In this document: positions 1 to 18,426 of the stretch, one piece after another | Layout of the letters: each line of letters starts with the position of its first letter | Numbering within the stretch: the stretch's first letter is position 1 | NCBI GenBank assembly: GCA_008632985.1 | Contig: QPGO01000040.1 | Coordinates: 45,311-65,310 of the forward strand | DNA: 20,000 bases | Reading direction: 5' to 3' | Origin: Psammoneis japonica | Lineage: Eukaryota | Translations under genes and position numbers: made by a program | The notes under the pieces: model-generated | Seen by the model: only the letters and a program-made list of their open reading frames with translations | The model's database searches: none | Told to the model about the DNA's origin: nothing

Positions 1-2923
1 CGATAGTACCAGGCTCGGCTTGGAGAGTCAACCTTGATGCGCTGGAAACACCCAGCTTGTTCATATTCTCGGTGCTGCTGGCTAGCAGCGATGCGGCAGC
101 TTCGTCCTCCATTTCATCGTCGTCGGTAGAGTCCATTGCGCTTTCAAACGTTTTCCGTTGTAACACCAAATCAGGAAACCGCGACACTAACAACAGAGCA
201 ACCACTACTGATATTTGAATTAGAAGTTTCTTCGGGTGCTCTTTCAGAAAGCTACTCGCGTTTTCGATTCCGAAGAAAGGCAAGATTGTATCACTCAAGG
301 TTTTGAAAACATGTCTTGTTTCTGACCTCAGGTCTGCCCACGGCACTGGCCATGATCTCCACTGTGGCAAACTCAATACTTCGCCAAAAGCAGAAACAAT
401 TGCCGCCAGTACTGGTTGAACAAACGATACCGTAACAATGCAAAGGCCGACCAGAGCCAAAAAGATAAAGGATGAAAGACGTGAAGACGCAACCATGGCA
501 ATCGCCTGAGCACCGGCGGTCCACCGCGACCACTCCAATACGTTTCGTTGCAATGGCAAGGACGACATTAAACGCAAATACAGTTGGCTGTATAGCGTCA
601 AGTCCCTTGCCGAGTCGCCAGCTTCGGAAGCCACCCTTTGAATCTGCGGATTCCATTTGATGGAGTTGTTGGCAAATACAAGAAACGCCGCTGTTAGAGC
701 AAACGGCGCCCATGAATCCGTCAAACCGTCTAAACAGGCGCTCTGCAACGAGCTTAGAAATGATGAACTGCCAAGTTCGCTGAGAGATGGGAGTTTCACA
801 GTCTGAACAAACGGCGTCATCTCGCGGATACCCAAAAGAATCAGTCCAAGACACACCACATCGGAAAAGGCGCGATGACGCCCGATAGCATGACAAGTAC
901 GCGCATCTTGTGTGGACAAGAGCGATAGGTTTCCTTCTTTGCCATGCTTGTATAGGCTCAAAGCTTCTTGCAACGGCTCCGTCATTGTTGTTGATGACTT
1001 TTTCGAGTGCCTATGAAGTGCTTTCCAAGGTCGTCGTTTCGGTGTGCTATCCGTACTCGTCTGCTTTCCACTAAATGGAAACAGACGTTCTCGCCACTTT
1101 TCTTTGGTACTACGTGGATCCAATGATGCCAATCTGTCAACTTCATCTCTATCCTTCCAAGCGTCAGCGGCAAGAGAGGAAGACGACCGTCTCTTGAAGA
1201 GACGCATCGGAGACGGAATGGCTCCGACGATTCTTGCAAAGAACTTTGGAGAATCAAAATCGTATGAAAAGGTTCTACGTGAGGTGTCTGGTGAAGTAGA
1301 CCAACCATCAATGGCAGAAGAGATCGGTCTACGATCCGGTTGTTTCCGGCTGCCGGGATCATGGGGAAGCGGCTTTGACGGGGTCTGACTCGAAGGTTTC
1401 TGAGCACTTAGGGCGTGCTGCTGCTGCTTGGTTGATCCCGCTATACCCTGAGTTGCGTCCTCGGGTCTCGTAGGCCAGTCGACATGACGCCGGCCTCCAA
1501 CGGCCGTCTTACTGGGTTGTTCAGTAGTAGATTGAATACTTGGGTATGGACGTGGCTTGGCTGTTGCGTTTTGATTGAGAGCTGCCGCGGTGGGTGGAGA
1601 ATGTTGATGGCCCGAGGGCGGCGTGGGCGATGCACCAGCCCGAATCACATTCTTTTTACCCGCCATGAGATCATTCCAATTCTTTGTATTTGGATCTGCA
1701 GCAACAGTCGTTGCTTGTGGTGGCTCTTGTTTTTTCTTCGTTTTGTTTATTGCAGCGCTCTTTGAAATCATGGATGACGAAGATGCAAGCAAGCGTTTTG
1801 CATTGTGAGATACGGTATCCTCCAGATTGGCCAATTCATCTAACCCCTGCTCTACACGGTTCCATAATGCTTTCCATCTTGGTTTCCGTTGTTGGCGACC
1901 TTCGAGTTGATGTTGATGTTGATGTTGAACGTATTGACGTTGTTGGTAGCGACGTTGATCCATCTGTTGAGGGTAGCGATGCTGTGGCGGTTGTCGTTGC
2001 TGCGGCATTGGACGAATTTGGGCCTGTAGCTGCTGTGGCGGATATCCCTGTTGTTGTTGTTGTTGCTGCTGCTGCTGCTGCTGCTGTTTGGGGTATTTCT
2101 GTTGTTGATACTGATTCTGCTGCGTCTGCCGTGCTTGCTGCGGCTGAAGGTATGGCCTTTGCGCCGGTTGCTGCTGCGGTGGTACTGGCACACTGATAGA
2201 AGAGAATATGAATGGTTTCTTGTCTGAAAGGTCTGTTTCCGGCTTTACCAATGTTGCAGGTCGTTGTGGTGGTGGACCGCGGTGTGCTGTTAACAGCGAG
2301 CCGTGAGGCTCTGTCGTTTTGGTCGCGGACGCCGACACGCGAGGAGGAGGTATTCTGCCTTCTTCTTTGACTGCTGGTCTAGAGAATTCGTTGCCGTGTT
2401 CTTTATAACCTTGTTTCTGCTCTTGTTTTAGTAAAGCATCCGTTTCTGACTTGGGGATATCTTTCTTTGGCAAAGCATTGTGCCTCGGCGGAGGTGGTCT
2501 CTCAAACAAGCTAGAAGGAGGTCGCTTAATCGCACTGCTCGAATGCCTTCTTGATGTATCATTTGTGTAGACGCGACTCTCCTCTCCTTTCGTAACACGC
2601 TGATCGGTTTTTACAGTCTCGGTATTCTTTTCTTTCTCATCGTGTATGCCTTCTTTTATTGGATTCAGAGGCGGACGAGGAGGAGGCAGCGGTGGCTTTT
2701 TCGGTACAAAAGTTATTGTTGATGTTGTTGCTTGTTTCTTCGGAACATCTTTACGAGGCGGTGGTGGCAAGATATTTTTGGATCGTTCGAGCGAGGAAGA
2801 AGCACGGACAAAGACGTGTTGTTGTTGCTGCTGTATAACTACCAGACAAAAACACAGCAACACCACACACAAACTGATTTGAAAATCTGGCGCGTTTCTT
2901 GTTCTTGCTTTCATCATATTCAT
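1..2923 (-). CDS. Large putative secreted/membrane protein (>=974 aa, 3'-partial): signal peptide, Pro/Gln-rich disordered N-half, then several hydrophobic segments
   Basis: Manual translation: the minus frame is open from ATG 2923 (MNMMKARTRNAPDFQISLCVVLLCFCLVVIQQQQQHVFVRA) to the window edge with no stop, which is why the ORF track omits it. Poly-Pro and poly-Gln tracts are followed by TM-like stretches (DVVCLGLILLGI, SFIFLALVGLCIVTVSFV, LLIQISVVVALLLVS). Confidence 0.8.
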   Translation of the reverse strand, partial: MNMMKARTRNAPDFQISLCVVLLCFCLVVIQQQQQHVFVRASSSLERSKNILPPPPRKDVPKKQATTSTITFVPKKPPLPPPRPPLNPIKEGIHDEKEKNTETVKTDQRVTKGEESRVYTNDTSRRHSSSAIKRPPSSLFERPPPPRHNALPKKDIPKSETDALLKQEQKQGYKEHGNEFSRPAVKEEGRIPPPRVSASATKTTEPHGSLLTAHRGPPPQRPATLVKPETDLSDKKPFIFSSISVPVPPQQQPAQRPYLQPQQARQTQQNQYQQQKYPKQQQQQQQQQQQQQGYPPQQLQAQIRPMPQQRQPPQHRYPQQMDQRRYQQRQYVQHQHQHQLEGRQQRKPRWKALWNRVEQGLDELANLEDTVSHNAKRLLASSSSMISKSAAINKTKKKQEPPQATTVAADPNTKNWNDLMAGKKNVIRAGASPTPPSGHQHSPPTAAALNQNATAKPRPYPSIQSTTEQPSKTAVGGRRHVDWPTRPEDATQGIAGSTKQQQHALSAQKPSSQTPSKPLPHDPGSRKQPDRRPISSAIDGWSTSPDTSRRTFSYDFDSPKFFARIVGAIPSPMRLFKRRSSSSLAADAWKDRDEVDRLASLDPRSTKEKWRERLFPFSGKQTSTDSTPKRRPWKALHRHSKKSSTTMTEPLQEALSLYKHGKEGNLSLLSTQDARTCHAIGRHRAFSDVVCLGLILLGIREMTPFVQTVKLPSLSELGSSSFLSSLQSACLDGLTDSWAPFALTAAFLVFANNSIKWNPQIQRVASEAGDSARDLTLYSQLYLRLMSSLPLQRNVLEWSRWTAGAQAIAMVASSRLSSFIFLALVGLCIVTVSFVQPVLAAIVSAFGEVLSLPQWRSWPVPWADLRSETRHVFKTLSDTILPFFGIENASSFLKEHPKKLLIQISVVVALLLVSRFPDLVLQRKTFESAMDSTDDDEMEDEAAASLLASSTENMNKLGVSSASRLTLQAEPGTI
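2047..2086. repeat. (TTG)n(CTG)n trinucleotide microsatellite encoding poly-Gln on the minus strand
   Basis: ctg ttg ttg ttg ttg ttg ctg ctg ctg ctg ctg ctg is in frame with the 2923..1 ORF (CAG/CAA codons). Confidence 0.8.
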
Positions 2924-3367: not shown

Positions 3368-4420
3368 CTAAACAATCCCCAAATCTTCGTGAGTTATTAG
3401 ACTTGAATTCAAGTGACCCACAAAATTCTGTAGCAGCAAAGTCGCGTGGCGATCATCCGTTCTATCGTCGCAGTGGTTGTCGCCATTGTCATTGTACGAT
3501 ACGACGTCAATATCAACAACCGTAATGGCCGTATTGTAACTTAGAAACTTTCGTTTCTTGACAATGGGAATGGGCAATCCCAACACGGCCTGTAGGACCA
3601 TGTCTTTGAAATCTCCATGACACACGAGTGCAATGGTTTTGCTCGTTCGCTCTGTCAAACACGTGGCGGCCATTTGGTAGAAACGATCTGCAACACGTTG
3701 GATTCGTGGAATAGCCATGGCACGTGTTTCCTTGTTGCGATCAACAGGATACCAGCCGTCTTGTGTCACGTCAGGAGGCAACTTGTAATTGGGAAACAGT
3801 TGTGTCATTTTGCTTTTCGATAGCCCGCCTTGTCCGACGCCTTGTCTGTGAATTCCTGAAACTTCATAAATATCCGTCCATACCTCTGGGTCCATGTTTA
3901 GTGCGACGCCAATCGGTTGTGCTGTTCGGAGTGCGCGAAGCATGGGTGACACATAAAGGGCATCAATGTCACCCATGATTGGATTAAAGTCGGAAAAGGA
4001 TTCGTGTGCGGCAAGGTACTGACCACAGGCAAGGGCGTGTTGCCTTCCTCGTGGTGATAGATCCGGGTCGTCGAGACGGTTGTTGCGATAGTAATCAACA
4101 GACTTTGCATTCATGACATTATTTTCGGATTCTCCGTGACGGATAAACAAGACACGGAGTCGGTATAGTGGATAGCCATACTCTGATTTTGTTGGGACAG
4201 ACTCCTTATCATCGCGGTTTGTTCTTGACGTGGTTGTCGTGCTAAACTTGGAAGACGAAGAGGCGGCCAACACATTTCGCGGTCTCGCCAACGACGATAT
4301 CGTTGAGACAATCGCGATAGTAGCAGCGTTCACAAAACGAGACCTCATAAAAGGAGTTGTGGTAAGCTGTCTTGTCGAGTTGTTGACAGAGGGAATGCCT
4401 CGGGATAACAACAACAACAT
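3368..4420 (-). CDS. Histidine phosphatase superfamily / phosphoglycerate mutase-like protein with Ser/Thr/Arg-rich N-terminal targeting-like extension
   Basis: RHG motif (LFIRHGESENN), D-x-x-LS-x-x-G-x-x-x-A, SPMLRALRTA and the C-terminal VCHG motif in a 350-aa ORF. The start codon is uncertain. Confidence 0.9.
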   Translation of the reverse strand: MLLLLSRGIPSVNNSTRQLTTTPFMRSRFVNAATIAIVSTISSLARPRNVLAASSSSKFSTTTTSRTNRDDKESVPTKSEYGYPLYRLRVLFIRHGESENNVMNAKSVDYYRNNRLDDPDLSPRGRQHALACGQYLAAHESFSDFNPIMGDIDALYVSPMLRALRTAQPIGVALNMDPEVWTDIYEVSGIHRQGVGQGGLSKSKMTQLFPNYKLPPDVTQDGWYPVDRNKETRAMAIPRIQRVADRFYQMAATCLTERTSKTIALVCHGDFKDMVLQAVLGLPIPIVKKRKFLSYNTAITVVDIDVVSYNDNGDNHCDDRTDDRHATLLLQNFVGHLNSSLITHEDLGIV

Positions 4421-4489
4421 CGTTGGCTGTTGCTCGAAGTGGTTTTTAGCAAAGATTCAGATGATGCGACGTCGCGTTACGAGTTGTTG

Positions 4490-6870
4490 CGAAATCCAAA
4501 ATTCCAACAAATGGGGATGACGTCACGGAAATCTGATTTGGGCACACGGGATCGCCATCTCCCGCTCGCTCTCCCCAAGCCCAGCCACCACCAGCAGGGA
4601 CGTTCTGCGACCTTTCCACTCTTCCGCTGCTGAAGGCACTTCCGTGCCTCCTTCTGCTGTTCACTTCCGTTCTCAACAGGCTCTCTAACTGTGTGCTTGG
4701 TTCAATCTTTGCCTGAAGCCAGTCCACCTCTCACAACCAGCGCCACAGCCGACCACGCATCGAAGTGCCGTGCTGGCCCTCGAGATTTCCTTCCAGCTTC
4801 AACACAAGTGACAACTTGTCCCAACATGGATTGAAAAAGCAACTGGGCAGCATTTTCTTGGTGAAATTGACGTGTGCTCATGACACTTCTTCAGCGTGCT
4901 GTGTGCTGCTGGCGCCTCTGCTTTTGGCTTGTTCTTGGAGAGCTGCCATCCTCACATTGCTGCCGAGTGAGGGGCTTGTTGATTCTTGATTCCTGTGTGG
5001 CACAATGTCTGTTTCATGTGGGTTGCAGCATGTGCGCCATGTTTCATGGAAGGAGAATGCCAGCTGCACCCTTGTGTCAAGAGATTGCCCAGTGAGTCAG
5101 GTCGCTTCCAGGACCTTCAGTTGGCAACAGATCAGAAATCCCAGTCAATGCCTGTGTCATTCACCAGCGCATGGAGCAACCTTTGTAGCTCCCACCCCAT
5201 CTGCCACACAAAGCACAAACAATGAGCAAACAATGGCATTCAACCACTGCATGAGAGACCTGCTCAGTGTGCATTCCAGAGGTTCAGCCAAACAAGTGGT
5301 CTGTCACATGGCCCACTCTCGTGGCTGGCATCCTTGATCTTGACTTGTTCCAGACTCATGTGCATGAATGTGCAGTCCAAACTTAAGGTGCAATTTTCAA
5401 TGGCCAAAAAACACAATGATCTTCAAATGCATTGTCATGGGCACATGCAGAAAGGTCTCGTGCATGCACTCATGTGTGAGAAACTGAGGATGGACCAAGT
5501 TGTTGATCGCCAAATTGTGCCTTAAGATGAGAGCTCTTTTTTCCGATGAGTGATTTGCAACTGCTTTTGTGTGTTGACAAACAACACATTGATTGTTGTT
5601 CTTGTGCACCAATGTGCTCTCAAATGCGACATGAATGATGTTTCGTCCACTCATTTGAGTGCAAGTTGATCTCAATGGATTGAACAAAACATGCATTGAT
5701 TGACAAGTTTCGGAAGACGCGGAAAGAAATGAAGCTCAGCATGTGCAATGGCATCAACTTCAGACCCTTTTTCACTGTTCCATTGGCATGAACAACTGAC
5801 ACACTTGCACAAGTCCATGTTGTGGAGGAAATGTGCATGAAAATGGAAAAGAAATGTGCTTTCTTGGAGGCAAATTGTGAGTGAATTGAGGCTCAATTGT
5901 TGGTGCTGACAGATTGAATCTTCTTGTGCCATGCTGCAGCCTGCATCAAGCATTTTCATTGTTGTGATGGATGCCACAGACCATGTGAAATGCTGTGGTC
6001 TTCATCATGACATTCAATTTTCCATGAGGTTGAAAAAAGCGGGCTGTCATGGTTGCTGAAAGCCATGGCCGTTTTGGCTGTTTGTTGGCTCGAATTTGCT
6101 CTGTTTGTTTCACTTAAAATCCATTGATGTGATCATTTAAATAAAATGTCAATGATGTTGAACAAAGCATGAAACATTCATTTTTTGTGCAAAATCAGGC
6201 ATGAGCATGCCACCTGAGTCTGGAGCAAGTCTTTTGCCAAAGTGCTGGTGCTGGTCTCCTCGCTCACCCACGATTTTTGACCTCGCACGCTGCATCCCTC
6301 ACAAGCAGATGTTTTTACTGCAGTGTTCATTGGCATCACACTCCAGCATGTGCTGACCTTCCCATGCACAGTGGAGAAGGAGCGGTGCAGTGCCTGTGGA
6401 CAGGCGGCATCAACAGCGCGGTGTCAATCTTGTTTCTTGTGCTTTCTGCTGCGCAGCTGTGGTGCTGGGCTTGCTCCCCCTCCCCCTGCCTCTCTCCACT
6501 GACAAATCATGTGCTTCAAGAGATGAAGTCCATTTTTTCTTTTTTTTCAGCTCTCAGACTGTTGTTCTGCCTTCCCTCTCCCTGCTGCCTCTTTCTTTTG
6601 AGAGCACTCTGCCGCAAAGGAGCTTTGCACGCATGCATGCAAGCACAGCCAGGTGACCTGTGTGTTTCCACTTGGACAAGAATGTTTGTTTTTTCATTCA
6701 CAAGGTGCTGTGTGATGGCCATTCTGGTCCCCGGGTGTGAGCCATCATCCATTCGCTTGGCCAAGAGCGAGAACAGGAAACTTGAGTGACACCTGGAACG
6801 ATTTGGCACGGTGACTCATTCATGTCTGCCCTAATTGTGAATGACGTGAAGGACATCATGACTCACTTAA
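4490..6870 (-). mobile_element. Decayed TE-like/foreign island 1 (TpA- and CpG-depleted) with relic minus-strand coding sequence of unknown family
   Basis: About 10 TpA in ~2.4 kb against normal density in the flanks, the same signature as the transposase-bearing island 2. A minus frame at ~5400-4950 is interrupted only by TGA (likely ex-CGA). No recognisable transposase motif or TIR. Boundaries are approximate. Confidence 0.55.
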
Positions 6871-7324
6871 GGGCGTCGTGACGTGTTTCCGATTCATCAT
6901 TCTTGAAGGTGCGCTCAATCTTCTTGTGAATGACGTTAGAGAGTGTCCCTATTCTTGCGTAAATAATATCAAGAAAATTGAGTGTATGGTTAAGCATAAA
7001 CGATGACACTCTGAGGTCATGATTGGAGTGAAATTCCGTGCACCAAAGTGTCACGCATGAATCCAACCAAATCCAACGCTCGCACCACATCCACGTAGAA
7101 CTCAGTACAAAAGCTACGTAATACTCATGCGGTTGGCGATCCTTTGATCACATTTTTTGCTTTCTCACACCTCAAACTGAGTTGAAACACACGACAACTC
7201 AATCTCCAAGCTATTGTATCGAGACAAGTCCTGCTGAGCAATTCATCGAAACTCTCCAGCGACACTTCCACATACAAACTCAAAAGTGGAGCCTGGAGAA
7301 ATTTCATAATTCATAGAGACAACC

Positions 7325-9126: not shown

Positions 9127-9683
9127 ATAGAAAGTGATGGATTATGGGTATGTAAATAGTATATATAAACAATAGAATTGCTACGGTTTGCTCATTCATT
9201 CGTCGATGGCCACGTATTTGTCCGTCCTGTTGATGTTGCGTATGCTGAATGTGCTCTATCCTCTCTACGAGTAGAAGTAGAGGTGAGAGGCAAATAATGT
9301 ATGTAGACTCTACCGTAGAGTTGATGGTGGTGGCGTTTCCTTTTAGGTCTCTTGCATGGGTGTTAAATAATCCTGAACAATTATGGAGAAATTTTCTTTT
9401 ACTGTTAAGTAAACAGATTCTCGTTTTTCCGTAAATATTGAGAGATAAATGTCGTCAACGCGAACCCCCATGCGTGTTCGGGGTCCGAATTTCCCACAAA
9501 ACAATAAAGGGACGAAAGCATCGCATCACGCCTCCCACAGTATTCTTCTCGACAAATAATTGAAGCTCTCGAAAAGACGGCACATCTGGTAAGAAGCACG
9601 ACGTGAGCGGTTTCTCTCTTTCTGTGACTTGCCGCTTCTAACGACTTGGTTTGGCCTGTTCGTGGCTACAGTACCCGATTGTA

Positions 9684-11444
9684 ATGAAACGCAGAACTCT
9701 AGAATGCACGGCGTTGGGAACCTGCCTACTTTTTGCTTTTATCTGTGAAGGTGCAAACGCAAAAGAAGATGTAGGAGTAATCGAAGAACCTGATGGTATC
9801 GATGGTTTCGCTACTAACCACGCAAAAAGCTTTGACTTTGGAACAACCAATAGCATTGCTGACGACACGATGGAAACCACGATGAAAGATATCGCCCTAG
9901 CGAGGGACCTTGTTGATGAATCACTGCCCTCCTGGACAGAGAAATATATGGCTGTTGACATTGGAGAATGGATTCAAATGGGACGGAGTATTACCATTGA
10001 TCCCAAAAAAAGGTTCGAAATGGTGGCAATGTCTAGAGATGGAAATCGTATGGTCATTTCAGAGAGTGGCAGATATGGAAAATTTGGGCGGATCCGTGCA
10101 TATCAGTGGAACTCTTTCAAGTCGGACTGGAAGCTAATGGGTCAAATCATCGAGGGAGTATACCACAGTCCTCTAGTCGCCATGTCAGCCGATGGAAAAT
10201 TTATTGTTACTGCTGAGGGACAAGAAGCAGTGCGTGTCTTCAAGTGGCAACGTCAAATGTGGAAACAGGTCGGAGAAAGCATTCCAATGTGGGTGGGTAC
10301 AAGCTACAATAGAGGATACTTTCAGTCAGTGGCAATATCGGATAATGGGCAAACTATTGCAGCTTCAATGTTGAACTATCGCATTAGAGTCCCTGGACAG
10401 GTCAAAGTATTTGACTGGGGAGGATCAAAGTGGAAAGAGAAGGGACACTTGTCCGGAAGCCTAAACAGCCTAGGGACATATGATTCATTCGGGGACAGTA
10501 TCGCAATGTCAGGAGATGGGAATCAATTGGCAATAGGTATTCCCTTTGCTGTAAAATCTGGAAAACGTGTAGGAAAGGCACAAGTCTTGAAGAGGAGGGA
10601 GGGATCATCTTCTTGGGTTCAAAAAGGACAAGACATTTACGGCAAAGGAAAGGACTACGGCTTTGGTAGGTCCATTGCGATATCTCAAAATGGAAGCCGC
10701 GTAATTATTGGTGAAAAGAGACATCGAGAAAGTGGATACGCACGTGTTGTTGAGTGGAACGAATCCAAAAAGCTTTGGAACATGGTAGGAAGCGATATCG
10801 AAGCGGAGTACAATGACGATTTCGGGGAATCAGTTTCAATATCGAGTGATGGAGGGCGAGTAGTTGCGGGCGCCAGAGACTTTGATGAAATGGTTGGCCC
10901 CTCAGGAGCCGGGTTTGCTCGGATGTTTCACTTTGATGGAACCTCATGGCTACAGCTGGGAAATGGATTGTATGGGAGGAAAAAATATAGTGGATTTGGC
11001 GCAGGCGGGGTGTCAATGGCAGGCAGTGGAAATCGTGTGGCAATCTTTTCGGGAAATGCCATTAGTGTTTACAATTTCGTTCCACTCGCCAATGACGCTC
11101 TTGTTGTAGAAATCAACATCAAGCCATTCAAGAAGAACCATGACATCAAAATCAGCAGAGCTCGTAAAGAAGAAACTGTAGGCGTTGCCGTACTTACAAC
11201 CGACGACTTTGACGCCAAAAAGGTAGACGTACAATCCATTCGATTCGGTCCTGATATGGCACAGCCTGTCAGTTGGCTAAAGAAGGATGTCAATTTCGAC
11301 GGTATCAAGGACATTATTCTCGTGTTCAAACTCCACCATACCGGGTTTAGTCCAGGGCGCCAGCAAGCATGCTTGCATGGAGAGCACACATCTGGAGTGG
11401 AATTCAAGGGTTGTCGAATCGTTCGCGTCACCAAGGCAAAGTAG
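9684..11444 (+). CDS. Secreted FG-GAP/integrin-alpha-like beta-propeller protein with C-terminal DxxxDG-loop beta domain, paralog A
   Basis: ATG 9684 is followed by a signal peptide (ALGTCLLFAFICEGANA). About 7 repeats of FGxS(I/V)A(M/I)SxDGxx(L/V)(A/V)(I/V)G ... WxxxG. The C-terminal domain runs VEINIKP...VAVLTTDDFDA...IRFGP...DVNFDGIKD. Intronless. Confidence 0.85.
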   Translation: MKRRTLECTALGTCLLFAFICEGANAKEDVGVIEEPDGIDGFATNHAKSFDFGTTNSIADDTMETTMKDIALARDLVDESLPSWTEKYMAVDIGEWIQMGRSITIDPKKRFEMVAMSRDGNRMVISESGRYGKFGRIRAYQWNSFKSDWKLMGQIIEGVYHSPLVAMSADGKFIVTAEGQEAVRVFKWQRQMWKQVGESIPMWVGTSYNRGYFQSVAISDNGQTIAASMLNYRIRVPGQVKVFDWGGSKWKEKGHLSGSLNSLGTYDSFGDSIAMSGDGNQLAIGIPFAVKSGKRVGKAQVLKRREGSSSWVQKGQDIYGKGKDYGFGRSIAISQNGSRVIIGEKRHRESGYARVVEWNESKKLWNMVGSDIEAEYNDDFGESVSISSDGGRVVAGARDFDEMVGPSGAGFARMFHFDGTSWLQLGNGLYGRKKYSGFGAGGVSMAGSGNRVAIFSGNAISVYNFVPLANDALVVEINIKPFKKNHDIKISRARKEETVGVAVLTTDDFDAKKVDVQSIRFGPDMAQPVSWLKKDVNFDGIKDIILVFKLHHTGFSPGRQQACLHGEHTSGVEFKGCRIVRVTKAK

Positions 11445-11748
11445 TGAGATATTTCGGATACACAAATACCAGGAAACCTTTTAATATATAGACAGTACTT
11501 ACCATTTTTAGGTTGTCGCTGACGAATGCGATGTTGTGCTTCTATATCTTTGAATGTGCCGTGAGCAAGAGTCGAGTTCTTGACTCATTGTTAGAACTCG
11601 TCTCGTTGTGATGTGGAGAGAATAAGTTTACCGCTTTGCGTAACACGTAAACCACACAGAAAGGTGGAACGTAAACGTTTAGAAGCTCTTCACACACCAC
11701 AAGATAAAAATAGCGCCGGATTTCATACGGGAGGTCCACGCAAGCATT

Positions 11749-11895
11749 TTAGTCTTTTGGATGCAACCCAGCATCGCCCAAGTATGGGGATCCAAATGCA
11801 CCCACACGTGCCATGTGTGGATTCTCTTGCATTGCATTTACTTCATTCTCCAACTTGGCAAGCTCCTTGTTGTCGGGGAAAATTTCTTGGGCTCG
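11749..11895 (-). pseudogene. Truncated duplicate of the last ~48 codons of the TM+TPR-like gene
   Basis: Near-identical to 17780-17926 including the stop codon. It is cut off at 11895, where transposon sequence begins. Confidence 0.85.
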
Positions 11896-12870
11896 AAAGC
11901 AACGATGGTGAAGGGTCCGCTTTAAAGAAGTTCAGGGCAGTGACATCATCAGCCGGTGCATCGTCGCGGAGGAAACGCCAAGACGAAGCAACAGTCACTC
12001 CTTTTAACATCAAACCACAAAAAGTCAAAGCCCGAACTGGTTTTAAAGACATTGTTCAGCTGCTGTGTCATGTTCTCACGGTTTGCGATGGAGACGTGGG
12101 AAGCATGACACAACAAACTGGTCCTTTGACGTGGTTTGAGGAATGGTTCCTGTTCTGTGAGTTCATCTGGGGAAGGACTGCGGCAACAATGGAAGCAGCA
12201 GGTGCCATTTTTGAACTCAGCAAGATGTCAAAAATGATTGATGGAAAGCTTGCATCTGTTCTCAAGAACGGCAGAACTGGCCGACTTGTGCTGCACATGA
12301 GGAAGACTTGAAAATGCATGGTGAGAAATGGAATGACAAGCATGGCAAAGATGAGCAACCAGTGCTTTGGGACGACACTGGCAATGATCTGCACACGCCA
12401 TCGGATTCACTCCTGCAGCGAGTGACTTGTTCTGCATGCTGTGGAGGCAACATTGCGAAGGGAGGTGTTTTTGCACAACTTTGTGGTTGGTTGGGGACCA
12501 AGGAGCTACATCCAGGTGCCATGTCTGATTCTGAATGCTTTCAAATGGCTGGTGTTCTTGAAAAACAGAAAAAGTTTCAAGAAGAGGATGGCAGAATCAA
12601 ATTCCTTGATGTGGTGTGGCGACAAGACCAATTTGTGTCACAACCTGAGTTTGCACAGAGTGATCAGAAATTCTCTGCTCGGGAAGTGTTGCACTCTGCA
12701 AGCATTGCAGCTGATTGCTCTGGAAATGAACGAGCAGTCCGTGTTTCTAAATTGTCAGCATGTGTCAAGCGCAGAATGCAAACACACAAGAATCTTGACC
12801 ATTTGTGCAAGGCATGGCTTGCCTGGAGTTGGCAAGCAAATTTTGTGTTTAAACTGGTTCATCAAAAAGT
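11896..12870 (+). pseudogene. DDE_Tnp_4 (ISL2EU/HARBI1-like) transposase pseudogene
   Basis: The motif order matches the family: RTGF; FEEWF (HTH region); WP...ED; VLWDDT (first Asp, 12371); P-S-D-x-x-LQRxT(C)SA(CC)GGNxxKG; PGAMSD; QPxF...F-x-x-x-EVL-x-S-x-x-IA-x-x-(C)-x-x-NERAV (Glu, 12728). Frameshift near 12267. The D(K/R)G second-Asp segment appears deleted near 12610. Confidence 0.8.
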
Positions 12871-13179
12871 TGGTTTATTCAGTTTGTTTCTTGGCAAATC
12901 ACAAAGCGTGTCCGAAATCAAAATGACAATTCTCTGCATGAAGCACCTCATGAGGATGAGGAGTCAATGGCTCCTGCTCTGCTGCAGGGCCTGTTGACAC
13001 AGTGCACCACAGTGCTTGTGATGGAGGCACAGGAAAAAGATTTCATTTGCAGTGCACTTGATGTGTGCCCCAAAATGTTGCAAGCACAGGTGTCCATTCC
13101 AGTCAGAGGGCAGGGACTCAAGTTCAGCAGTGACTCCCACAGAGGGATGTCATGCAACAGATCAGGCTCCAGTTGTCAG

Positions 13180-14055
13180 CAAGAAATTGACAAGTTCAAT
13201 GTTGAAGAAGGTGGTCAATGAAAGTGTTTGGCCACATTGCAAGTTCACAATCTTCGACAGAGAACTGGCGGTGAGAAGAGAGCACATGAAAAGAAGACTT
13301 CTGCAGGAGTCAAGAAGTGCAGCAGCTGCACCGGAGGCACTCTGGGAAGCATGCAAAGAGGTGTTCAGGAAAAAACTCAACCACAAAAGGAGCAATGTGC
13401 AGGATGATGGAAGGAGGAGGATGACAGGCAAGCCAAAATGTGGACGCATTCAAAAGTCATGGACAGGAATGTCTGACAACAAGAGTGTGATTTCCATTGT
13501 TTTCATCAATGCAGCTGCTGCTTTAGAGGGGTCACTGGTTGAGTGCAAAGATTTGGTCCAGGACAGAGTGGACAAAAGCACACACACATGGTTCTTGGAA
13601 ACTGCAGCGCCAACTGTGTCAGGCCAAGTGCAGTTTGGCAGAAGCATGACCAACTTGCTCCAAGAGTGGCTTGCCATTTCTTTGGAGGCCTTTGCTCTGC
13701 TGGTGTGCTTGAGCTGCCATGACAAGGTGGTCAACACATCAGAGAAATTGGGAAAGGACAACAACATTGCAAGGCAAAGAAAGCTGTGGTGGTGGAAGAC
13801 ACTGCACCAGCAAAGTGTGCTGCAATGGCAAAGGGAGAAATGGCTGAAAGGAGCCAAGGATGGAGCAAGGATGAGATCAAGAAGTGCAATGAACTGCACA
13901 AGTGGGTGATGAAAAACCAGGAGGAGAACAAAGGATTCAGTGCATGGCTCAAGGAACAGAGACAAGAGAAGGCAAACTTGCCCAAGGAGGCAGAGAAGAG
14001 CTGCAAAAGGGAGGAGAAGAGGAAGGAGAGAGAGAGGACAGATGGGCAGCATTGA
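13180..14055 (+). pseudogene. Transposon accessory ORF relic (SxEAFALL and GWSxxxIxxxNxL motifs) with one degenerate intron
   Basis: ORF 13052..13909 (VWPHCKF ... FRKKLNHKRSN ... ISLEAFALLV) shifts into ORF 13786..14055 (GWSKDEIKKCNELHKWV). These motifs resemble TE-associated hypothetical proteins of diatoms, from recollection only; the family is not assigned. Candidate intron at 13428-13514. Confidence 0.5.
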
Positions 14056-15287
14056 TGGGAGAGGACCTGCCATTGCTGGCAGCCACTGGCTGCAATGGAG
14101 TGGAAGCAATTGCAGAAGTGGCAACCAACCAAACTGGTGTGTGAGCTCAATTTGTGGCAAGCAACAAAATCCAGAAAACAGAAAAAACAAAAAGGCAAGC
14201 TGTGGCACAATTGACAGTCGAGAAATGTGGCCATTGCAAAGCTGTTGCACATTTAAAGCAGCAGCGCAAATGCATGAAATGCCAAAGGATGATGCAGGCA
14301 AGGATGGTGGATCTCAAGTGGCAAAACAGGTGATGAAGAAACAATGAGCAGCAAATGTCAACAAGGGTTGAGAGCAAAATTGTGGGCAAACATGTTCGCA
14401 CTGCAAAGTGGAGTGAAATTCAGGTTTTAGAAGCTCACGAACTCAATCAGTCACATGTTTTTTTTTGTGCACTCGCCTTCTGATTTTTGAAACAATCAAA
14501 TTTGAAGGAATTCAATGTGCCAAACTGTGCAGAAAACCAGTCTCACACATGATGGATTGCTCATCACTGGGGCTGGAACATGCGGGAGACGGGTTTCAGC
14601 CCCAGGTGGGACTCCGTGTGACATTTGCCCCGCAGAATTCTGTGTGCAAGCTCTGCAGTTCATGCTCTGGCCAATGGACACATTTGTCTTCGACATGAAA
14701 TGAACGACCAAGTTTGTGGCACACATGTCCCTGTTCCTGCTTGAAGTTTTGGACAGCCCGCCTGCCCCGCGCCATGCTCAAGACATTTGAGAATGGTGCA
14801 GAAGAAAAAAATGTCAAAAGTTGTTGAATGGATCGCCCAATGATTGTGCCGCAAAACAGCGCAAAATGTCACCAAAATCACATGGAAATGTGCGTGCGCA
14901 ACATGCGATGCGATTCAAAAAACTGTCGATGTCACAGTTCAGCAGCACGAGGTCCCACCTGGACCTGGAACATGTCAGGAGGGTTGTGGCCACAGTGCAT
15001 GAAGAGCACTCTGCTGACTTGCTCGCAGCGGGCCACACATTGTGGTTGGTTGTGGCAGTGTCAAGAGATGTGACAACCGTGCTGCAAGGACAAAACAAGT
15101 GCTGCCTGGAGCCCTTGCCCTTGTCTGGAGAGATGATGGCCGATGTTGTGTTTTGACATCATTGTGTGTGGATGACAATGAAGCTTGAGATGGCTTGGAA
15201 ACAGATCAGGAGACAAGGTTTTTTTTATGATGGTGACAACAATGCCCAGCGCGATGATGACACCAAAGACACCGATCTGAAATCACG

Positions 15288-15346
15288 AGCTTTTTTTTTA
15301 GCAGAATGTGAGCTAAAAAAGTGGGGGATGACCCCCCCCCCCTTAA
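15288..15346. repeat. Putative transposon terminus: two short inverted repeats and a C-run abutting TTAA
   Basis: ttttttagc (15294-15302) and gctaaaaaa (15312-15320) form an inverted pair. Then ggggg-atga-ccccc, C11 ending at 15342, and TTAA at 15343-15346. This coincides with the compositional boundary. Confidence 0.55.
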
Positions 15347-15364
15347 GCGTCTGATGCGATGTTG

Positions 15365-17926
15365 GCGTTAAATAATGCAGCATCTTAGTGAACAATTAAG
15401 AGGAAACTTTCTTTGGTGTTAAGTAGACAGATCCTTGCTTTCTCCCATAAATGTTGAGAAATAATTATTAGACCATGTCGTCAACGCGAACCCCGAGAAT
15501 TCTGACATGCGAATCATCTCCCACAAAACCAAAAAAAAGGAAAAACATCGCGTCAACAGAGCAGCACTACACAACCTCGTCAACTGGAAATCACAGCGCC
15601 ATAAAATATTCGTCTCTATACAAATCGAAACTCTCGAAAAGACGGCAAATCTGGTAAGAAGCAGGACGTGAGCGGTTGTCTCTTTCTGTGGCTTGCCGCT
15701 TCTAACGACTTGGTTGGACCTTTTCGTCAATGTGGCTACAGCACCAGATAATAATGACACGCAGTACTCTAGAGTACACGGCGTTAGGAGCCTTGATACT
15801 TTTTGCTTTTATCGGTGTAGGTGTAAACGCAAAAGAAAATGTAGGAGTGGCTGAAGATCCTGTCGTGAGAAATAGTTTCGACAGTTTCGCTACTAGCCAC
15901 GCAAAAAGGTTTGACATTGGAACGACCACCAGAATTTCTGACGACACAGTGGACTCCACGAGAAGAAATCTCGGGGACTCTGTTGATGAATCACTGCCTT
16001 CCTCGACAGAGAAATCTACTGCTGTCGACATTGGAGAATGGATTCAAATGGGACGGAGTATTACTACCACACATCCCAAAAAATGGTTCGGAATGATGGC
16101 AATGTCTAGAGATGGCAATCGTATGGCCATTTCAGAGAGTGTCAAAAATGCAAAAATTGGGCGAATCCGTGCATATCAGTGGAACTCTTTCAAGTCGGAC
16201 TGGAAGCTAATGGGTCAAATCATAGAGGGAGAATATAAAAGCCGTCGACCCATGCCTCTACCGGCAGTGGCAATGTCAGCTAATGGAAAATATCTTGTTA
16301 CTGCCGAGGGACTAGAAGTAGTGCGTGTCTTCAAGTGGCAAAGTCAAATGTGGAAACAGGTCGGAGAAAGCATTCCAAGTTGGGTGAGCAACCATAGAGA
16401 TTTCTTCCGGTCAGTAGCAATATCAGATGATGGACAAACTATTGTGGCTTTAATTTCTTTCGACGCCGCTAGAAACCCTGGACAAGTCAAATTGTTTGAC
16501 TGGAGTGGATCCGAATGGAAAGAAAGGGGATCCTTGTTGGAGAGTTTAGACAGCCGCGAGGACATTGGTTTCAGCATCGCAATGTCAGGAGATGGGAATC
16601 AATTGGCAATAGGTATTCCCTTAGCTGTAAAATCTGGAAGAAATGTAGGCAAGGCACAAGTCTTCAAGAGGAGGAAGGGATCATCTTCTTGGGTTCAGAA
16701 AGGACAAGACATTTATGGCAAAGGGAAGGACTACGGCTTTGGTTTATCAATAGCGATATCTCAAAATGGAAGCCGCGTAGTTATTGGTGATCTGAGTGGG
16801 TACGCACGTGTTGTCGAGTGGAACGAGTCCACGAATCATTGGAACATGGTAGGAAATGGTATCGAAGCGGAGTACAAAGATGAATTCGGAGGATCTGTTT
16901 CTATATCGAGTGATGGAGGGCGAGTGGTTGCGGGCGCCAGTGACTTTTATGGAGTGGTTGGCCCCTCAGGAGCCGGGTTTGCTCGGATGTTTCACTTTGA
17001 TGGAACCTCCTGGCTACAGCTGGGAAATGGATTGTACGGGAGGGAAAAATATAGTGGATTTGGCGCAGGCGGGGTGTCAATGGCAGGGAGTGGAAACCGC
17101 GTGGCGATCTTTTCGGGAAATGCCATTAGTGTTTACAATTTTGTTCCACTCGCCAATGACGCTCTTGCTGTAGAAATCAACATCAAGCCATTTAAGAAGA
17201 ACCATGACATCAAAATCAGCAGAGCTCGAAAAGAAGAAACAGTAGGCATTGCCGTACTCACAACCGACAACTTTGACGCCAAAAAAGTAGACGTACAATC
17301 CATTCGATTCGGCCCTGATATGGCACAGCCTGTCAGTTGGCTAAAGAAGGATGTCAATTTCGACGGTATCAAGGACATTATTCTTGTATTCAAACTCCAT
17401 CATACCGGGTTTAGTCCAGGGCGCCAGCAAGCATGCTTGCATGGAGAGCACACATCTGGAGTGCAATTCAGAGGTTGTCGAATCGTTCGCGTCACCAAGG
17501 CAAAGTAGTGAGACATTTCGGAAACGAGAATACCAGGAAAACTTTTAATATTATATACAGTACTTACCATTTAGACATGCACCGAGCAGCAAAGAAAGTT
17601 GTCGCTGACGAATGCGATGTTGTGAAAGAGGCGAGTTCTTGACTCTTCGACAGAACTCGTCTCGGTGTGATATGGAGAGAATATACCGCTTTTCGTAAAA
17701 CGTTTCAGAAGCTCTTCAAAACTCCTCGAGGTTAAACTTGGGTCGTAGGATTTGATACGTGAGGTCCAAGCAAGCATTTTTAGTCTTTTGGATGCAACCC
17801 GGCATCGCCCAAGTATGGGGATCCAAATGCACCCACACGTGCCATGTGAGGATTCTCTTGCATTGCATTCACTTCATTCTCCAACTTGGCAAGCTCCTTG
17901 TTATCGGGGAAAATTTCTTGGGCTCG
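15365..17926 (+). repeat. Tandem segmental duplication, copy 2 (continuous with the intact downstream gene)
   Basis: Homologous to 9360-11895 and continues without a break into the full TPR-like gene. Confidence 0.9.
15754..17508 (+). CDS. Secreted FG-GAP-like beta-propeller protein, paralog B
   Basis: Same architecture as 9684..11444. ATG 15754 is positionally homologous to ATG 9684, and an in-frame upstream ATG at 15730 is possible. Signal peptide ALGALILFAFIGVGVNA. Confidence 0.85.
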   Translation: MTRSTLEYTALGALILFAFIGVGVNAKENVGVAEDPVVRNSFDSFATSHAKRFDIGTTTRISDDTVDSTRRNLGDSVDESLPSSTEKSTAVDIGEWIQMGRSITTTHPKKWFGMMAMSRDGNRMAISESVKNAKIGRIRAYQWNSFKSDWKLMGQIIEGEYKSRRPMPLPAVAMSANGKYLVTAEGLEVVRVFKWQSQMWKQVGESIPSWVSNHRDFFRSVAISDDGQTIVALISFDAARNPGQVKLFDWSGSEWKERGSLLESLDSREDIGFSIAMSGDGNQLAIGIPLAVKSGRNVGKAQVFKRRKGSSSWVQKGQDIYGKGKDYGFGLSIAISQNGSRVVIGDLSGYARVVEWNESTNHWNMVGNGIEAEYKDEFGGSVSISSDGGRVVAGASDFYGVVGPSGAGFARMFHFDGTSWLQLGNGLYGREKYSGFGAGGVSMAGSGNRVAIFSGNAISVYNFVPLANDALAVEINIKPFKKNHDIKISRARKEETVGIAVLTTDNFDAKKVDVQSIRFGPDMAQPVSWLKKDVNFDGIKDIILVFKLHHTGFSPGRQQACLHGEHTSGVQFRGCRIVRVTKAK

Positions 17927-18426
17927 TTCAAAGGCAGCCCGAGCTGCTTGGCAATCTTCAGCTTGGTACAAGAGCAATGTAATGAGACTGAGATGCGATG
18001 GTAGGTAGGATTCGTCACGATATATGGATACCTCCAACATTCGTGATGCCTTTTCAACACTAGGCACATCACTATCTCCCTGCTTTAAGCAACCCAAAGC
18101 CTCGCTGAGATTGCAAAATTGATTGATTCAATGAAAGAAAGAGTGAGCATGGGATTAAAAAGTACGAGAAAAAAAAGCAAACACAAGTACAAACACGAAA
18201 ATTCGACTTACTCGTGAAGCTGCTCTGCTGATTTTGGATACACAATGTAATAGATTCGTCTACAAAACTCATACAGCACTGTTAGAAACAGCAAGACCAC
18301 CACACCCGGCAACAATACCGTTGTGGTGAGTTCCCAAAGAAATTCAGGCAAGTGAGAGATTGCAATTTCCAACTCGGCGGAAAGGTTGCGCAGTGCGTAC
18401 ACTAGCATTTTCGTTCGACCGCCCAT
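17780..18426 (-). CDS. Two-exon single-TM protein with a TPR-like helical C-terminus (exons 18426-18212 and 18104-17780)
   Basis: Donor GA|GTAAGT at 18211 and a pyrimidine-rich acceptor TCTCAG| at 18105 join ORFs 18208..18561 and 17780..18097 in frame (..EQLH-D-EALGCLK..). TM segment VLLPGVVVLLFLTVLY; TPR-like AARAAFERAQEIFPDNKEL. Confidence 0.75.

What the first reader, a model, noticed from the sequence alone, without database searches (positions are those of the whole stretch)
12266..12740. Direction of mutation is readable in the transposase: Tyr->Cys/His and Arg->Cys at conserved motifs
The reconstructed transposase contains no Tyr. Where DDE_Tnp_4/ISL2EU proteins have Q-x-x-TYSxY(K/Y)xxNxxK, this copy reads T-C-S-A-C-C-G-G-N (TGT 12428, TGC 12437, TGT 12440). 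Other cases are WPT-C-AA-H-EED, EL-H-PG (CAT 12509), SDSE-C (TGC 12536), and IAAD-C-SGNERA (TGC 12716) where the family has the R of RxxxER. TAY->TGY and TAY->CAY are the two strand outcomes of A->G at TpA, and CGC->TGC is CpG decay. The TpA loss therefore happened after the gene was functional and is protein-destroying, not codon bias.
Basis: partly seen in the sequence, partly recalled or inferred. Interest (0 to 1): 0.82.

Follow-up and report, generated by a model that had tools for sequence, protein, structure and literature searches.

The report
Dead transposon hypermutated at TpA
A broken jumping-gene enzyme in this eukaryotic genome has lost every tyrosine codon because nearly all its TA steps were changed to TG or CA, a rare mutation pattern so far reported from only one alga.

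Summary
Window 12266-12862 (+) is the decayed DDE_Tnp_4 (PIF/Harbinger-type) domain of a transposase. Its N-terminal part lies one frame away at about 12000-12265.

- **Tyrosine loss.** Against 45 intact homologs, 6 of the 7 tyrosine-majority columns are Cys or His in the window (TGY/CAY). The transposase reading has no Tyr at all.
- **CpG loss.** The invariant Arg of D-R-S-G-N-E-R is TGC. Three further conserved Arg are CAT or CAA.
- **Stop loss.** The family's stop position reads CAA.
- **Reversion test.** Undoing TG/CA to TA raises a homolog-HMM score far more often than undoing other transitions.

So the direction of mutation is readable, and the damage came after the gene was functional.

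The gene sits in a 3.5-kb block (11897 to about 15424). A second block lies at about 4480-6830. In both, TpA is about 0.05 of expectation, CpG 0.36, and TG/CA about 1.75. Host flanks are normal and the edges are sharp. Surviving TpA are almost all TTAA or TAAA.

This matches the TpA-only A:T>G:C hypermutation described in a 2026 preprint on Bigelowiella natans. That work did not discuss CpG loss or this sequence context. The organism here is unidentified and probably not B. natans. Verdict: a real feature and a new member of a very recently described kind.

The parts
11897..15424 (.). TpA-free, CpG-poor, TG/CA-rich block 2. It holds the transposase remnant plus unannotatable repeat DNA.
   Evidence: Left edge: alignment with the paralogous host copy stops at 11896. 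Right edge: the first TA lacking a TAA context is at 15424. Composition.
11898..12265 (+). N-terminal part of the transposase in frame 3. Homology is clear from about 12000 (V-K-x-R-T-G-F ... T-W-F-E-E-W). It is probably cut short at its 5' end by the block edge.
   Evidence: Alignment with 27 homologs. Only 42 codons precede the TGF motif, against about 80-125 residues in homologs read.
12258..12268 (+). Frameshift. Homology passes from frame 3 to frame 2 here.
12266..12862 (+). DDE_Tnp_4 catalytic domain remnant, 199 codons, with no Tyr.
   Evidence: Pfam PF13359 at 18.9 bits, below the 24.8 cut-off. 482 homologs at E<=1e-3, the best 49-62% identical. Column table.
12425..12442 (+). Motif T-C-S-A-C-C (ACT TGT TCT GCA TGC TGT), where the family has T-Y-S-x-Y-Y.
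   Evidence: Y 24, 43 and 43 of 45. Two metagenome relatives read TAC/TAT at these codons.
12608..12619 (+). Site of a gap of about 10 codons covering the L-D-R-G-Y-R motif (second catalytic Asp region). The exact alignment is ambiguous.
12716..12718 (+). TGC (Cys) where Arg is invariant in D-R-S-G-N-E-R. This is CGC>TGC, a CpG>TpG change.
   Evidence: R 45/45. It is the largest single-site score gain, +5.3 bits.
12863..12865 (+). CAA at the family's stop position, consistent with TAA>CAA. The open frame runs on to 12997.
   Evidence: 44 of 45 homologs end at the preceding column. So do 12 of the 13 nearest relatives; the other, P0165, is cut short.
13000..15424 (.). The rest of block 2. No recognisable protein. 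It carries long artefactual ORFs on both strands. Part of it belongs to a repeat family.
   Evidence: No Pfam hit at E<=0.01 in its 13 stop-to-stop ORFs scanned. Atlas search blank. Summed contig depth is 17,000-40,000 at 14008-15341, against 25-70 in host flanks (not a copy number).
4480..6830 (.). Block 1, a second repeat-derived stretch with the same composition. It is unrelated in sequence to block 2.
   Evidence: No family above 34 nt is shared with block 2. Summed depth is 833-1172 at 5337-6670. No credible Pfam hit in its 12 ORFs; the best is Hepcidin at E = 0.019, 15.7 bits against a cut-off of 27.
9489..11895 (+). Host tandem duplicate A (FG-GAP gene), with ordinary TpA and CpG. It abuts the left edge of block 2.
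15516..17926 (+). Host tandem duplicate B, 73-97% identical to A, with ordinary composition. It serves as the reference for the block's left edge.

Best explanation
Window 11897-15424 is a dead, probably 5'-truncated cut-and-paste transposon of the PIF/Harbinger (DDE_Tnp_4) kind, joined to other repeat DNA. It lies between two tandem host gene copies in an unidentified eukaryote.

After the transposase had been a working gene, the element went through two directional transition processes. Both stopped at its edges.

1. A near-saturating change at TpA, where A:T became G:C on either strand. Each TA became TG or CA once, and was then no longer a target.
2. A less complete CpG>TpG/CpA decay.

The first process removed all Tyr codons (giving Cys or His) and the stop codon (giving Gln). 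It also changed residues wherever a TpA spans a codon boundary. The second turned conserved Arg into Cys, His or Gln.

What is shown: the direction of change, the two dinucleotide targets, the restriction to repeat DNA, and the survival of TpA only in TTAA/TAAA contexts.

What is inferred:
- Process 1 is the same kind of targeted defence as the TpA hypermutation seen live in Bigelowiella natans mutation-accumulation lines.
- It is carried out by a DNA-acting adenine deaminase (A>inosine, read as G). I give about 0.4 to that enzyme class.
- Process 2 is ordinary deamination of 5-methylcytosine in a methylated, silenced repeat.
For: **Direction**
- Of 103 columns with a consensus of at least 50%, 32 differ in the window. 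Ten of these are one TA>TG/CA step from a consensus codon and 7 are one CG>TG/CA step. Only 2 are other transitions.
- 6 of 7 Tyr-majority columns are C or H (P = 2e-8).
- 4 of 7 Arg-majority columns are TGC, CAT or CAA.
- The stop position reads CAA.
- Reversion test: 17/79 against 4/214 gain more than 1 bit (p = 1e-7). The score goes from 214.8 to 251.5 bits with the TA class and to 270.8 with CpG added. The control reaches 221.5.

**Dead gene**
- Frameshift, gap and lost stop.
- Pfam score below the cut-off, while 7 of 9 homologs pass.

**Composition**

| Dinucleotide | o/e in blocks | o/e outside |
|---|---|---|
| TA | 0.05 | 0.59 |
| CG | 0.36 | 1.02 |
| TG | 1.78 | 1.17 |
| CA | 1.72 | 1.17 |

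- TG is about equal to CA in block 2 (377 and 358), so both strands were hit.
- The edges are sharp.

**Context**
- TTAA keeps flank density: 9 of the 19 survivors, p = 4e-8.
- All other NTAN contexts fall to 0-0.18 of flank density.
- TAA is at 0.27 of flank density, against 0.02-0.06 for TAC, TAT and TAG.

**Relatives elsewhere**
- Three related metagenome loci have TpA o/e of 0.41-0.94 and TAT/TAC Tyr codons.

**Precedent**
- bioRxiv 10.64898/2026.01.13.699255. I read the abstract, Results and Discussion.
- It reports 230 of 231 new mutations in two integrated viral regions as A>G/T>C, all at TpA.
- It reports 324 TpA-poor CDS enriched for a DDE endonuclease domain.
[quoted passage not shown] Windows 12001-15000 here meet them.
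Against: - No enzyme, methylation or live-mutation data exist for this organism. The whole genome is not held.
- The organism is unidentified, so 'same process as in B. natans' rests on the signature alone.
- The B. natans lines showed almost no C>T. The CpG loss here is therefore a separate, assumed process.
- CpG depletion is uneven within block 2, from o/e 0.03 to 0.58 per 500 nt.
- Ancestral codons are inferred from protein homologs only 43-62% identical, not from a sister copy. Individual sites such as 12296, 12509 and 12608 are uncertain.
- The TTAA rule rests on 19 surviving sites.
- Choosing only score-raising reversions inflates the combined scores. The class-proportion comparison is the fair test.
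Confidence: 0.8

Rival explanations
1. Same targeted TpA hypermutation, but the chemistry starts at the thymine. An example is oxidation to 5-hydroxymethyluracil by a TET/JBP-type enzyme, followed by mispairing or faulty repair, giving T>C.
For: TA>CA on one strand is the same event as TA>TG on the other, so the sequence cannot tell A-directed from T-directed chemistry. That 5-hydroxymethyluracil in dinoflagellate DNA favours TpA is recalled, not from a call.
Against: No evidence here for such enzymes or bases. The only study of the phenomenon proposes adenine deamination. U33-A34, the natural tRNA target of ADAT/TadA, already gives a T-A context; this point is recalled.
Confidence: 0.12
2. 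RNA-level A-to-I hyperediting (ADAR-like) of double-stranded transcripts, fixed in the genome through reverse transcription.
For: ADARs prefer a 5' U. Both strands of a duplex are edited (as discussed in the preprint).
Against: The element encodes a DDE cut-and-paste transposase, which has no RNA intermediate. Depletion covers non-coding repeat DNA of two unrelated blocks, right up to sharp genomic edges. In B. natans the changes arise in integrated single-copy DNA.
Confidence: 0.03
3. No mutation pressure. The element evolved, or arrived from a donor genome, with TpA and CpG avoidance while still functional.
For: CpG and TpA are mildly under-represented in many genomes and viruses. Flank TpA o/e is 0.59.
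Against: Invariant residues are lost: Y 43/45 twice, Y 40/45, R 45/45. The stop is also lost, and there is a frameshift and a gap. Relatives have ordinary TpA at the DNA level. The Pfam score has fallen below the cut-off.
Confidence: 0.02
4. Chance, ordinary neutral decay, or an assembly or sequencing artefact.
For: None specific. The DNA run that holds the stretch may be the assembly's own source, so it is not independent.
Against: P about 1e-35 for the TA gap. The pattern is local, with sharp edges inside one contig. Contigs of run X1 cover 11842-14626 without a difference. The changes are polarised against 45 homologs.
Confidence: 0.01

Closest known systems
TpA-targeted hypermutation of integrated foreign DNA in Bigelowiella natans (Mettrop et al., bioRxiv 10.64898/2026.01.13.699255, 2026)
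   Same: - Exclusive TA>TG/CA direction.
- TpA depletion with CpA+TpG enrichment, in clusters of 1-kb windows. The preprint's cut-offs are met at 12001-15000 and at 5001-7000.
- Restriction to non-host DNA.
- A DDE endonuclease domain among the enriched families of TpA-poor CDS.
   Different: - Here the target is a cut-and-paste transposon at saturation (TpA o/e 0.05). The viral regions there still hold 3.3-9.2% TpA.
- Direction here is inferred from homologs, not observed in mutation-accumulation lines.
- CpG is co-depleted here. The word CpG does not occur in the preprint's main text.
- A TTAA/TAAA immunity is visible here. 'TTAA' and 'trinucleotide' do not occur in the preprint's text. I could not see its Fig. 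2B or its supplements.
- The organism here is unidentified and probably different.
Repeat-induced point mutation (RIP) of ascomycete fungi
   Same: Transition hypermutation confined to repeated or mobile DNA. It destroys coding capacity and leaves a dinucleotide signature with sharp contrast to host genes.
   Different: RIP is C>T, mainly at CpA, and so creates TpA. Here TpA is destroyed and TG/CA are created, which is the opposite direction. Whether repeat copies are sensed by homology is unknown here. In B. natans a single-copy region is hit.
CpG decay of methylated transposons (vertebrates, basidiomycetes, many algae)
   Same: CG>TG/CA changes, with Arg>Cys/His/Gln at conserved columns and CpG o/e of 0.36 in the blocks. 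An environmental homolog, P0165, shows this pattern alone.
   Different: It accounts for only 7 of the 17 explained differences and cannot remove TpA. Methylation itself was not measured.
PIF/Harbinger-superfamily transposases (Pfam DDE_Tnp_4, PF13359)
   Same: Domain order and motifs: W-D-x-T, T-Y-S-x-Y-Y-x-G-N-x-A-K-G-G, L-D-R-G-Y-R, D-R-S-G-N-E-R. Homologs pass the Pfam cut-off.
   Different: The window copy itself scores below the cut-off. It is frameshifted, gapped and without terminal repeats in view. Many homologs are 1,400-2,000 aa with the domain at the C-terminus.

Membership tests
DDE_Tnp_4 / PIF-Harbinger transposase | Match to PF13359 above the gathering score | tested here: not met
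   The window copy scores 18.9 bits against a cut-off of 24.8. Seven of 9 homologs scanned pass at 26.7-42 bits, one scores 23.6, and one has only Peptidase_C48. The copy is a decayed member by descent: 49-62% identity, E as low as 1e-62.
DDE_Tnp_4 / PIF-Harbinger transposase | Catalytic D-D-E triad | tested here: inconclusive
   The first Asp (W-D, 45/45) and the Glu of N-E-R (45/45) are present. The region of the second Asp (L-D-R-G-Y-R) carries a gap of about 10 codons, and its alignment is ambiguous. Assigning these residues to the triad is recalled, not tested.
DDE_Tnp_4 / PIF-Harbinger transposase | Terminal inverted repeats and 3-bp target-site duplication | tested here: not met
   No inverted repeat pair frames 11897-15424. 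The element looks cut at its 5' end.
   No PF13613 hit in the window or in 9 homologs. There is one sub-threshold THAP hit, in P0008 (E = 0.0057, 17.8 bits against 23.9).
TpA-targeted hypermutation (B. natans type) | Changes are A:T>G:C at TpA only, giving TG or CA | tested here: met
   Polarised against 45 homologs. The stop position reads CAA.
TpA-targeted hypermutation (B. natans type) | [quoted passage not shown] | tested here: met
   Windows 12001, 13001 and 14001 have rho TpA of 0.08, 0.02 and 0.03, and rho CpA+TpG of 1.72, 1.87 and 1.81. Windows 5001 and 6001 also pass. That is 5 of 20 windows.
TpA-targeted hypermutation (B. natans type) | Confined to foreign or mobile DNA, with host genes spared | tested here: met
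   Host duplicates on both sides have TpA o/e of 0.5-0.8. The edge lies at 11896/11897. Both blocks coincide with stretches of raised summed contig depth.
TpA-targeted hypermutation (B. natans type) | Elevated de novo rate in living lineages | not testable with these tools
   It needs mutation-accumulation lines or resequencing. Only contigs of one sample were available.
Fungal RIP | C>T at CpA, with a rise of TpA relative to ApT | tested here: not met
   TpA o/e is 0.05 and CA o/e is 1.72 in the blocks, the reverse of RIP.

The most novel reading that the evidence does not exclude
TpA-directed DNA editing is a genome defence that reaches beyond chlorarachniophytes. This rests on two observations. 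The host genes here have diatoms as their best named relatives, at 30-39% identity. A second transposase copy with the same Tyr>Cys/His signature lies on an unrelated environmental contig.

On this reading the defence:
- drives cut-and-paste transposons to complete TpA loss;
- obeys a context rule, with TAB edited and TTAA/A-tract TAAA immune, which points to an enzyme that flips bases out of double-stranded DNA;
- acts on the same silenced, probably CpG-methylated, domains.
Probability: 0.35. Interest if true: 0.8.

Novelty: new member of a known kind. Interest (0 to 1): 0.6.

Why it matters
Targeted A:T>G:C mutation at TpA is the mirror image of fungal RIP. In my five literature searches it appears in only one preprint, on one species.

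This locus adds several things.
- It gives an independent, comparative proof of direction.
- It shows that ordinary DNA transposons are driven to saturation.
- It adds two testable features. The first is TTAA/TAAA immunity. The second is coincidence with CpG decay, which narrows the search for the enzyme and for the targeting signal.
- It hints that the process may occur in a second lineage.

It also has a practical consequence. DNA without TpA has only TGA stops, so it throws up long false ORFs on both strands. These will be annotated as orphan genes.

Tried and rejected
- **Whole genome.** Not held. I therefore made no family consensus, no genome-wide scan and no search for deaminase genes.
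- **The rest of both blocks.**
  - 25 stop-to-stop ORFs gave no credible Pfam hit. All five matches were far below their cut-offs, and the best was Hepcidin at E = 0.019.
  - The Atlas search of the 295-aa ORF gave no lead, with a best score of 0.88.
- **Earlier findings of the scan.** Three look-ups returned nothing.
- **Sequencing runs.** One sample, three runs, all kept as contigs, and no RNA holder listed. The laid contigs give no per-site spectrum inside the blocks, because 454 difference rows were not shown. I could not test for ongoing mutation or for expression.
- **Organism.**
  - Exact look-ups of three window proteins found nothing.
  - Homolog searches with two host genes gave at best 59-62% identity, from unnamed assemblies.
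  - The named hits were only diatoms: Epithemia at 39% and Chaetoceros at 30%.
  - The Atlas search of the GLTP-domain gene was not informative on taxon.
  - This argues against B. natans but proves nothing.
- **Explanations considered and dropped.** RIP goes in the wrong direction. Codon bias is excluded by the loss of invariant residues. An ADAR-plus-retrocopy route does not fit a DNA transposon.
- **Preprint supplements.** The bioRxiv supplements (Tables S2, S6-S11, Fig. S7-S11) and Fig. 2B could not be seen. They may already contain a sequence-context logo or CpG figures.
Full report
**1. What is in the sequence**

A six-frame reading shows one gene-like reading in two frames. Frame 3 runs from about 11898 to 12265. 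Frame 2 runs from 12266 to 12862 and stays open to 12997. Pfam finds only a weak DDE_Tnp_4 match in the frame-2 part: E = 0.0012, 18.9 bits, gathering score 24.8.

A full HMMER search of 1.84 billion representatives with 12266-12994 found 482 proteins at E<=1e-3, 203 at <=1e-10 and 27 at <=1e-30. The best are 49-54% identical. A word-indexed search added 10 closer ones at 43-59%. Of 9 homologs scanned against Pfam:
- 7 pass the DDE_Tnp_4 cut-off (26.7-42 bits);
- one scores 23.6;
- one shows only a Ulp1 protease domain.

The thing is therefore a decayed transposase of the PIF/Harbinger (DDE_Tnp_4) kind.

**2. The residue test**

Among the 169 domain matches of the stored proteins, 48 cover window residues <=5 to >=190. 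I dropped three cluster-mates of proteins already included (P0153, P0154, P0156) and aligned the other 45.

| Place | Window codon and residue | Homologs |
|---|---|---|
| 12437 | TGC, Cys | Tyr 43/45 |
| 12440 | TGT, Cys | Tyr 43/45 |
| 12536 | TGC, Cys | Tyr 40/45 |
| 12287 | TGT, Cys | Tyr 26, Phe 16 |
| 12428 | TGT, Cys | Tyr 24, Phe 9, Trp 7, His 4 |
| 12341 | CAT, His | Tyr 23, Phe 15 |
| 12716 | TGC, Cys | Arg 45/45 |

The only Tyr-majority column that is not Cys or His is 12848 (TTT, Phe; homologs Y 29, F 13). That makes 6 of 7. Only 12 of 315 homolog cells in these columns are Cys or His (binomial P = 2e-8).

- His 12296 sits in a column with H 11, Y 11, L 9, F 6.
- His 12509 sits in a column that is Trp 28/45 overall, but Tyr in 9 and Phe in 4 of the 13 nearest relatives.

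Of the 7 Arg-majority columns, 3 keep CGN. Four read CAT (12317), CAA (12356), TGC (12716) and CAT (12800).

Changes at codon boundaries fit as well.
- Met 39/45 > Val at 12845 (TTT|ATG > TTT|GTG).
- Gly 42/45 > Arg at 12773 (CGC|GGA > CGC|AGA).

44 of 45 homologs end one column before 12863, where the window reads CAA. That is what TAA gives after T>C.

Of 103 columns with a consensus of at least 50%, 71 agree with the window. The 32 that differ break down as follows:
- 10 are one TA>TG/CA step from a consensus codon;
- 7 are one CG>TG/CA step;
- 2 are other transitions;
- 5 are transversions;
- 8 need two or three changes.

**3.

I built an HMM from the 45 homologs and tried every single transition in 12266-12862. 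A gain of more than 1 bit was seen in:
- 17 of 79 non-synonymous TG>TA or CA>TA reversions;
- 9 of 75 TG>CG or CA>CG reversions;
- 4 of 214 other transitions.

Fisher p = 1e-7 for the TA class against the rest.

| Sites reverted | Score (bits) |
|---|---|
| none (window as it is) | 214.8 |
| all score-raising TA-class sites | 251.5 |
| the same plus CpG-class sites | 270.8 |
| the four score-raising 'other' sites | 221.5 |

The combined figures are chosen for gain and so are inflated. The class proportions are the fair comparison.

**4. The gene is dead**

- Homology moves from frame 3 to frame 2 near 12258-12268.
- About 10 codons are missing at the L-D-R-G-Y-R-S-T-R-A-A stretch. The exact placement of this gap is ambiguous.
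- The stop codon is gone.
- The reading starts only 42 codons before the conserved T-G-F motif, because the block begins at 11897. Homologs have about 80-125 residues there.

**5. The surroundings**

The transposase is part of a wider anomaly. Two stretches, about 4480-6830 and 11897 to about 15424, almost lack TpA. Together they hold 19 TA in 5,745 nt, against 604 in 14,255 nt outside.

| Dinucleotide | o/e in blocks | o/e outside |
|---|---|---|
| TA | 0.05 | 0.59 |
| CG | 0.36 | 1.02 |
| TG | 1.78 | 1.17 |
| CA | 1.72 | 1.17 |

TG and CA are about equal (377 and 358 in block 2), so both strands were hit.

The window also holds a tandem host duplication: 9489-11895 and 15516-17926, at 73-97% identity. 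Alignment of the two copies stops at 11896, which fixes the left edge of block 2 to the base. The host copies have ordinary composition.

The two blocks share no sequence and give no credible protein-family match outside the transposase.

Contigs of the one DNA sample that holds the window were laid at 88% likeness or more. Summed depth was 833-1172 at 5337-6670 and 17,000-40,000 at 14008-15341, against 25-70 in host parts. The transposase part is at flank level. The tool warns that this is not a copy number. It does show that many similar contigs exist, so these parts belong to repeat families.

**6. A context rule**

The surviving TA are not random. Nine of 19 are TTAA, against 22 of 604 outside (p = 4e-8). 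TTAA density inside equals that outside (ratio 1.0). Every other NTAN class is at 0-0.18.

Pooled over both strands, TAA is at 0.27 of flank density. TAC and TAT are at 0.02 and TAG at 0.06. Most non-TTAA survivors read TAAA on one strand.

Take the TA that have no TAA on either strand. Only one lies in 4322-6949 (at 5186) and only one in 11784-15423 (at 12507). The 2,917-nt gap has P = 2e-35 at the flank rate.

The simplest reading is that the A of 5'-T-A-B is the target and an A next to it (an A-tract) protects. A TA then survives saturation only if both strands are protected, which is TTAA. This rests on few sites and needs the whole genome.

**7. What it is like**

Five literature searches were run. 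They turned up one description of such a process: Mettrop et al., bioRxiv 10.64898/2026.01.13.699255. I read its abstract, Results and Discussion and searched its text. Its supplements and figures were not available.

In mutation-accumulation lines of Bigelowiella natans:
- 231 of 302 new nuclear point mutations fell in two integrated viral regions;
- 230 of those were A>G or T>C, all at TpA;
- the genome also holds 324 TpA-poor predicted CDS, enriched for a DDE endonuclease domain and two reverse-transcriptase domains;
- it holds 124 clusters of TpA-poor, CpA+TpG-rich 1-kb windows.

By that paper's own cut-offs, 5 of the 20 1-kb windows here pass, three of them consecutive. The authors propose an ADAT2-like DNA adenine deaminase. 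The present locus is thus a new instance of a very recently described kind.

**8. What goes beyond that description**

- CpG is co-depleted here, and unevenly so: o/e 0.03-0.58 per 500 nt within block 2. TpA loss is uniform. The word CpG is absent from the preprint's text, and its lines showed almost no C>T.
  - I read this as a second, slower process, namely deamination of methylated CpG in a silenced repeat. This is an inference.
  - Two environmental homologs support separability.
  - P0165 shows Arg>His/Cys/Trp/Gln with its Tyr kept.
  - P0085, from an ENA contig, has Cys or His at 9 of the 13 Tyr positions of its nearest relative P0056. It keeps Tyr at none of them, yet keeps 13 of 19 Arg.
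- The TTAA/TAAA rule of section 6.
- The organism is unidentified.
  - No exact window protein is in the collection.
  - Two host genes find at best 59-62% identical unnamed proteins.
  - The only named relatives are diatoms: Epithemia at 39% and Chaetoceros at 30%.
  - A well-annotated B. natans genome would be expected to give near-identical hits. The window is therefore probably from another organism, but this is not proven.

**9. Relatives at the DNA level**

A metagenome scan found three related loci, two of them nearly identical. Their TpA o/e is 0.41-0.94 per 500 nt. Each has 9 Tyr in the domain (6 TAT, 3 TAC), and they read T-Y-S-x-Y-Y with TAC/TAT codons where the window has TGT/TGC.

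**10. Mechanism, as far as it can be stated**

Shown:
- the direction of change, TA>TG/CA and CG>TG/CA;
- action on both strands;
- one hit per TA, since the product is no longer a target, which is why CG does not rise;
- confinement to repeat DNA, with an edge sharp to within tens of bases;
- a bias in the context of the survivors.

Inferred:
- a targeted, enzyme-driven process like that of B. natans;
- adenine deamination as the chemistry, at about 0.4. A thymine-directed route cannot be excluded from sequence;
- CpG methylation as the cause of the second signature.

**11. A by-product**

With TAA and TAG abolished, only TGA can stop translation. The blocks therefore carry long open frames on both strands. 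Examples are 13022-13909 (+), 295 codons, and 13450-14313 (-), 287 codons. These have no family match and are best taken as artefacts.

**12. Verdict**

- The feature is a new member of a kind known from a single 2026 preprint.
- Interest is moderate to high, because of the added context rule, the CpG link and a possibly wider taxonomic range.

Noticed in passing
window 4480-6830 (4322-6949 by the strict TA measure): A second block that almost lacks TpA and is CpG-poor. It is unrelated in sequence to the first. It has raised summed contig depth at 5337-6670 and no recognisable protein.
   Followed up: partly
window 9489-11895 and 15516-17926: Tandem host duplication at 73-97% identity. Each copy carries an intronless FG-GAP-repeat gene with a signal-peptide-like start (597 and 592 aa). 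The last 149 nt (11747-11895 and 17778-17926) are 97% identical and read as the 3' end of a minus-strand gene. Copy B continues this gene. Copy A is cut off by the block.
   Followed up: partly
window 13022-14313, both strands: Overlapping open frames of 295 codons (+) and 287 codons (-) with no family match. They are most likely artefacts of DNA in which TAA and TAG cannot occur. This is a hazard for gene prediction.
   Followed up: partly
protein P0085 (ENA metagenome contig), compared with P0056: An environmental transposase copy from another branch of the family shows the same signature. Nine of 13 Tyr positions are Cys or His and none is kept. Arg is largely intact, so there is TpA loss without CpG decay.
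   Followed up: partly
protein P0165 (JGI metagenome contig): This homolog shows the reverse pattern. Conserved Arg are replaced by His, Cys, Trp or Gln, with Tyr kept. That is CpG decay alone.
   Followed up: no
proteins P0005, P0008, P0009, P0012, P0071 and others: Many homologs are 1,400-2,000 aa with the DDE_Tnp_4 domain at the extreme C-terminus. One carries a Ulp1 protease domain (83.6 bits). One has a sub-threshold THAP hit. The large N-terminal parts have no family match.
   Followed up: no
window 18104-18212: A contig of run X2 skips 107 nt with ends CT..AC. That is a GT..AG intron of a minus-strand gene. X2 may therefore be RNA-derived although it is listed as 'DNA?'.
   Followed up: no
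window 15290-15424: The right margin of block 2 holds 8 TA, and all of them have a TAA context. None is of the unprotected kind. It looks as if an AT-rich end had been stripped of every editable TA. A run of 11 C lies at about 15333-15343.
   Followed up: no
window 1900-2150: Imperfect TGC/TGT triplet repeats. They encode a Gln-rich tract of the 974-aa minus-strand ORF.
   Followed up: no
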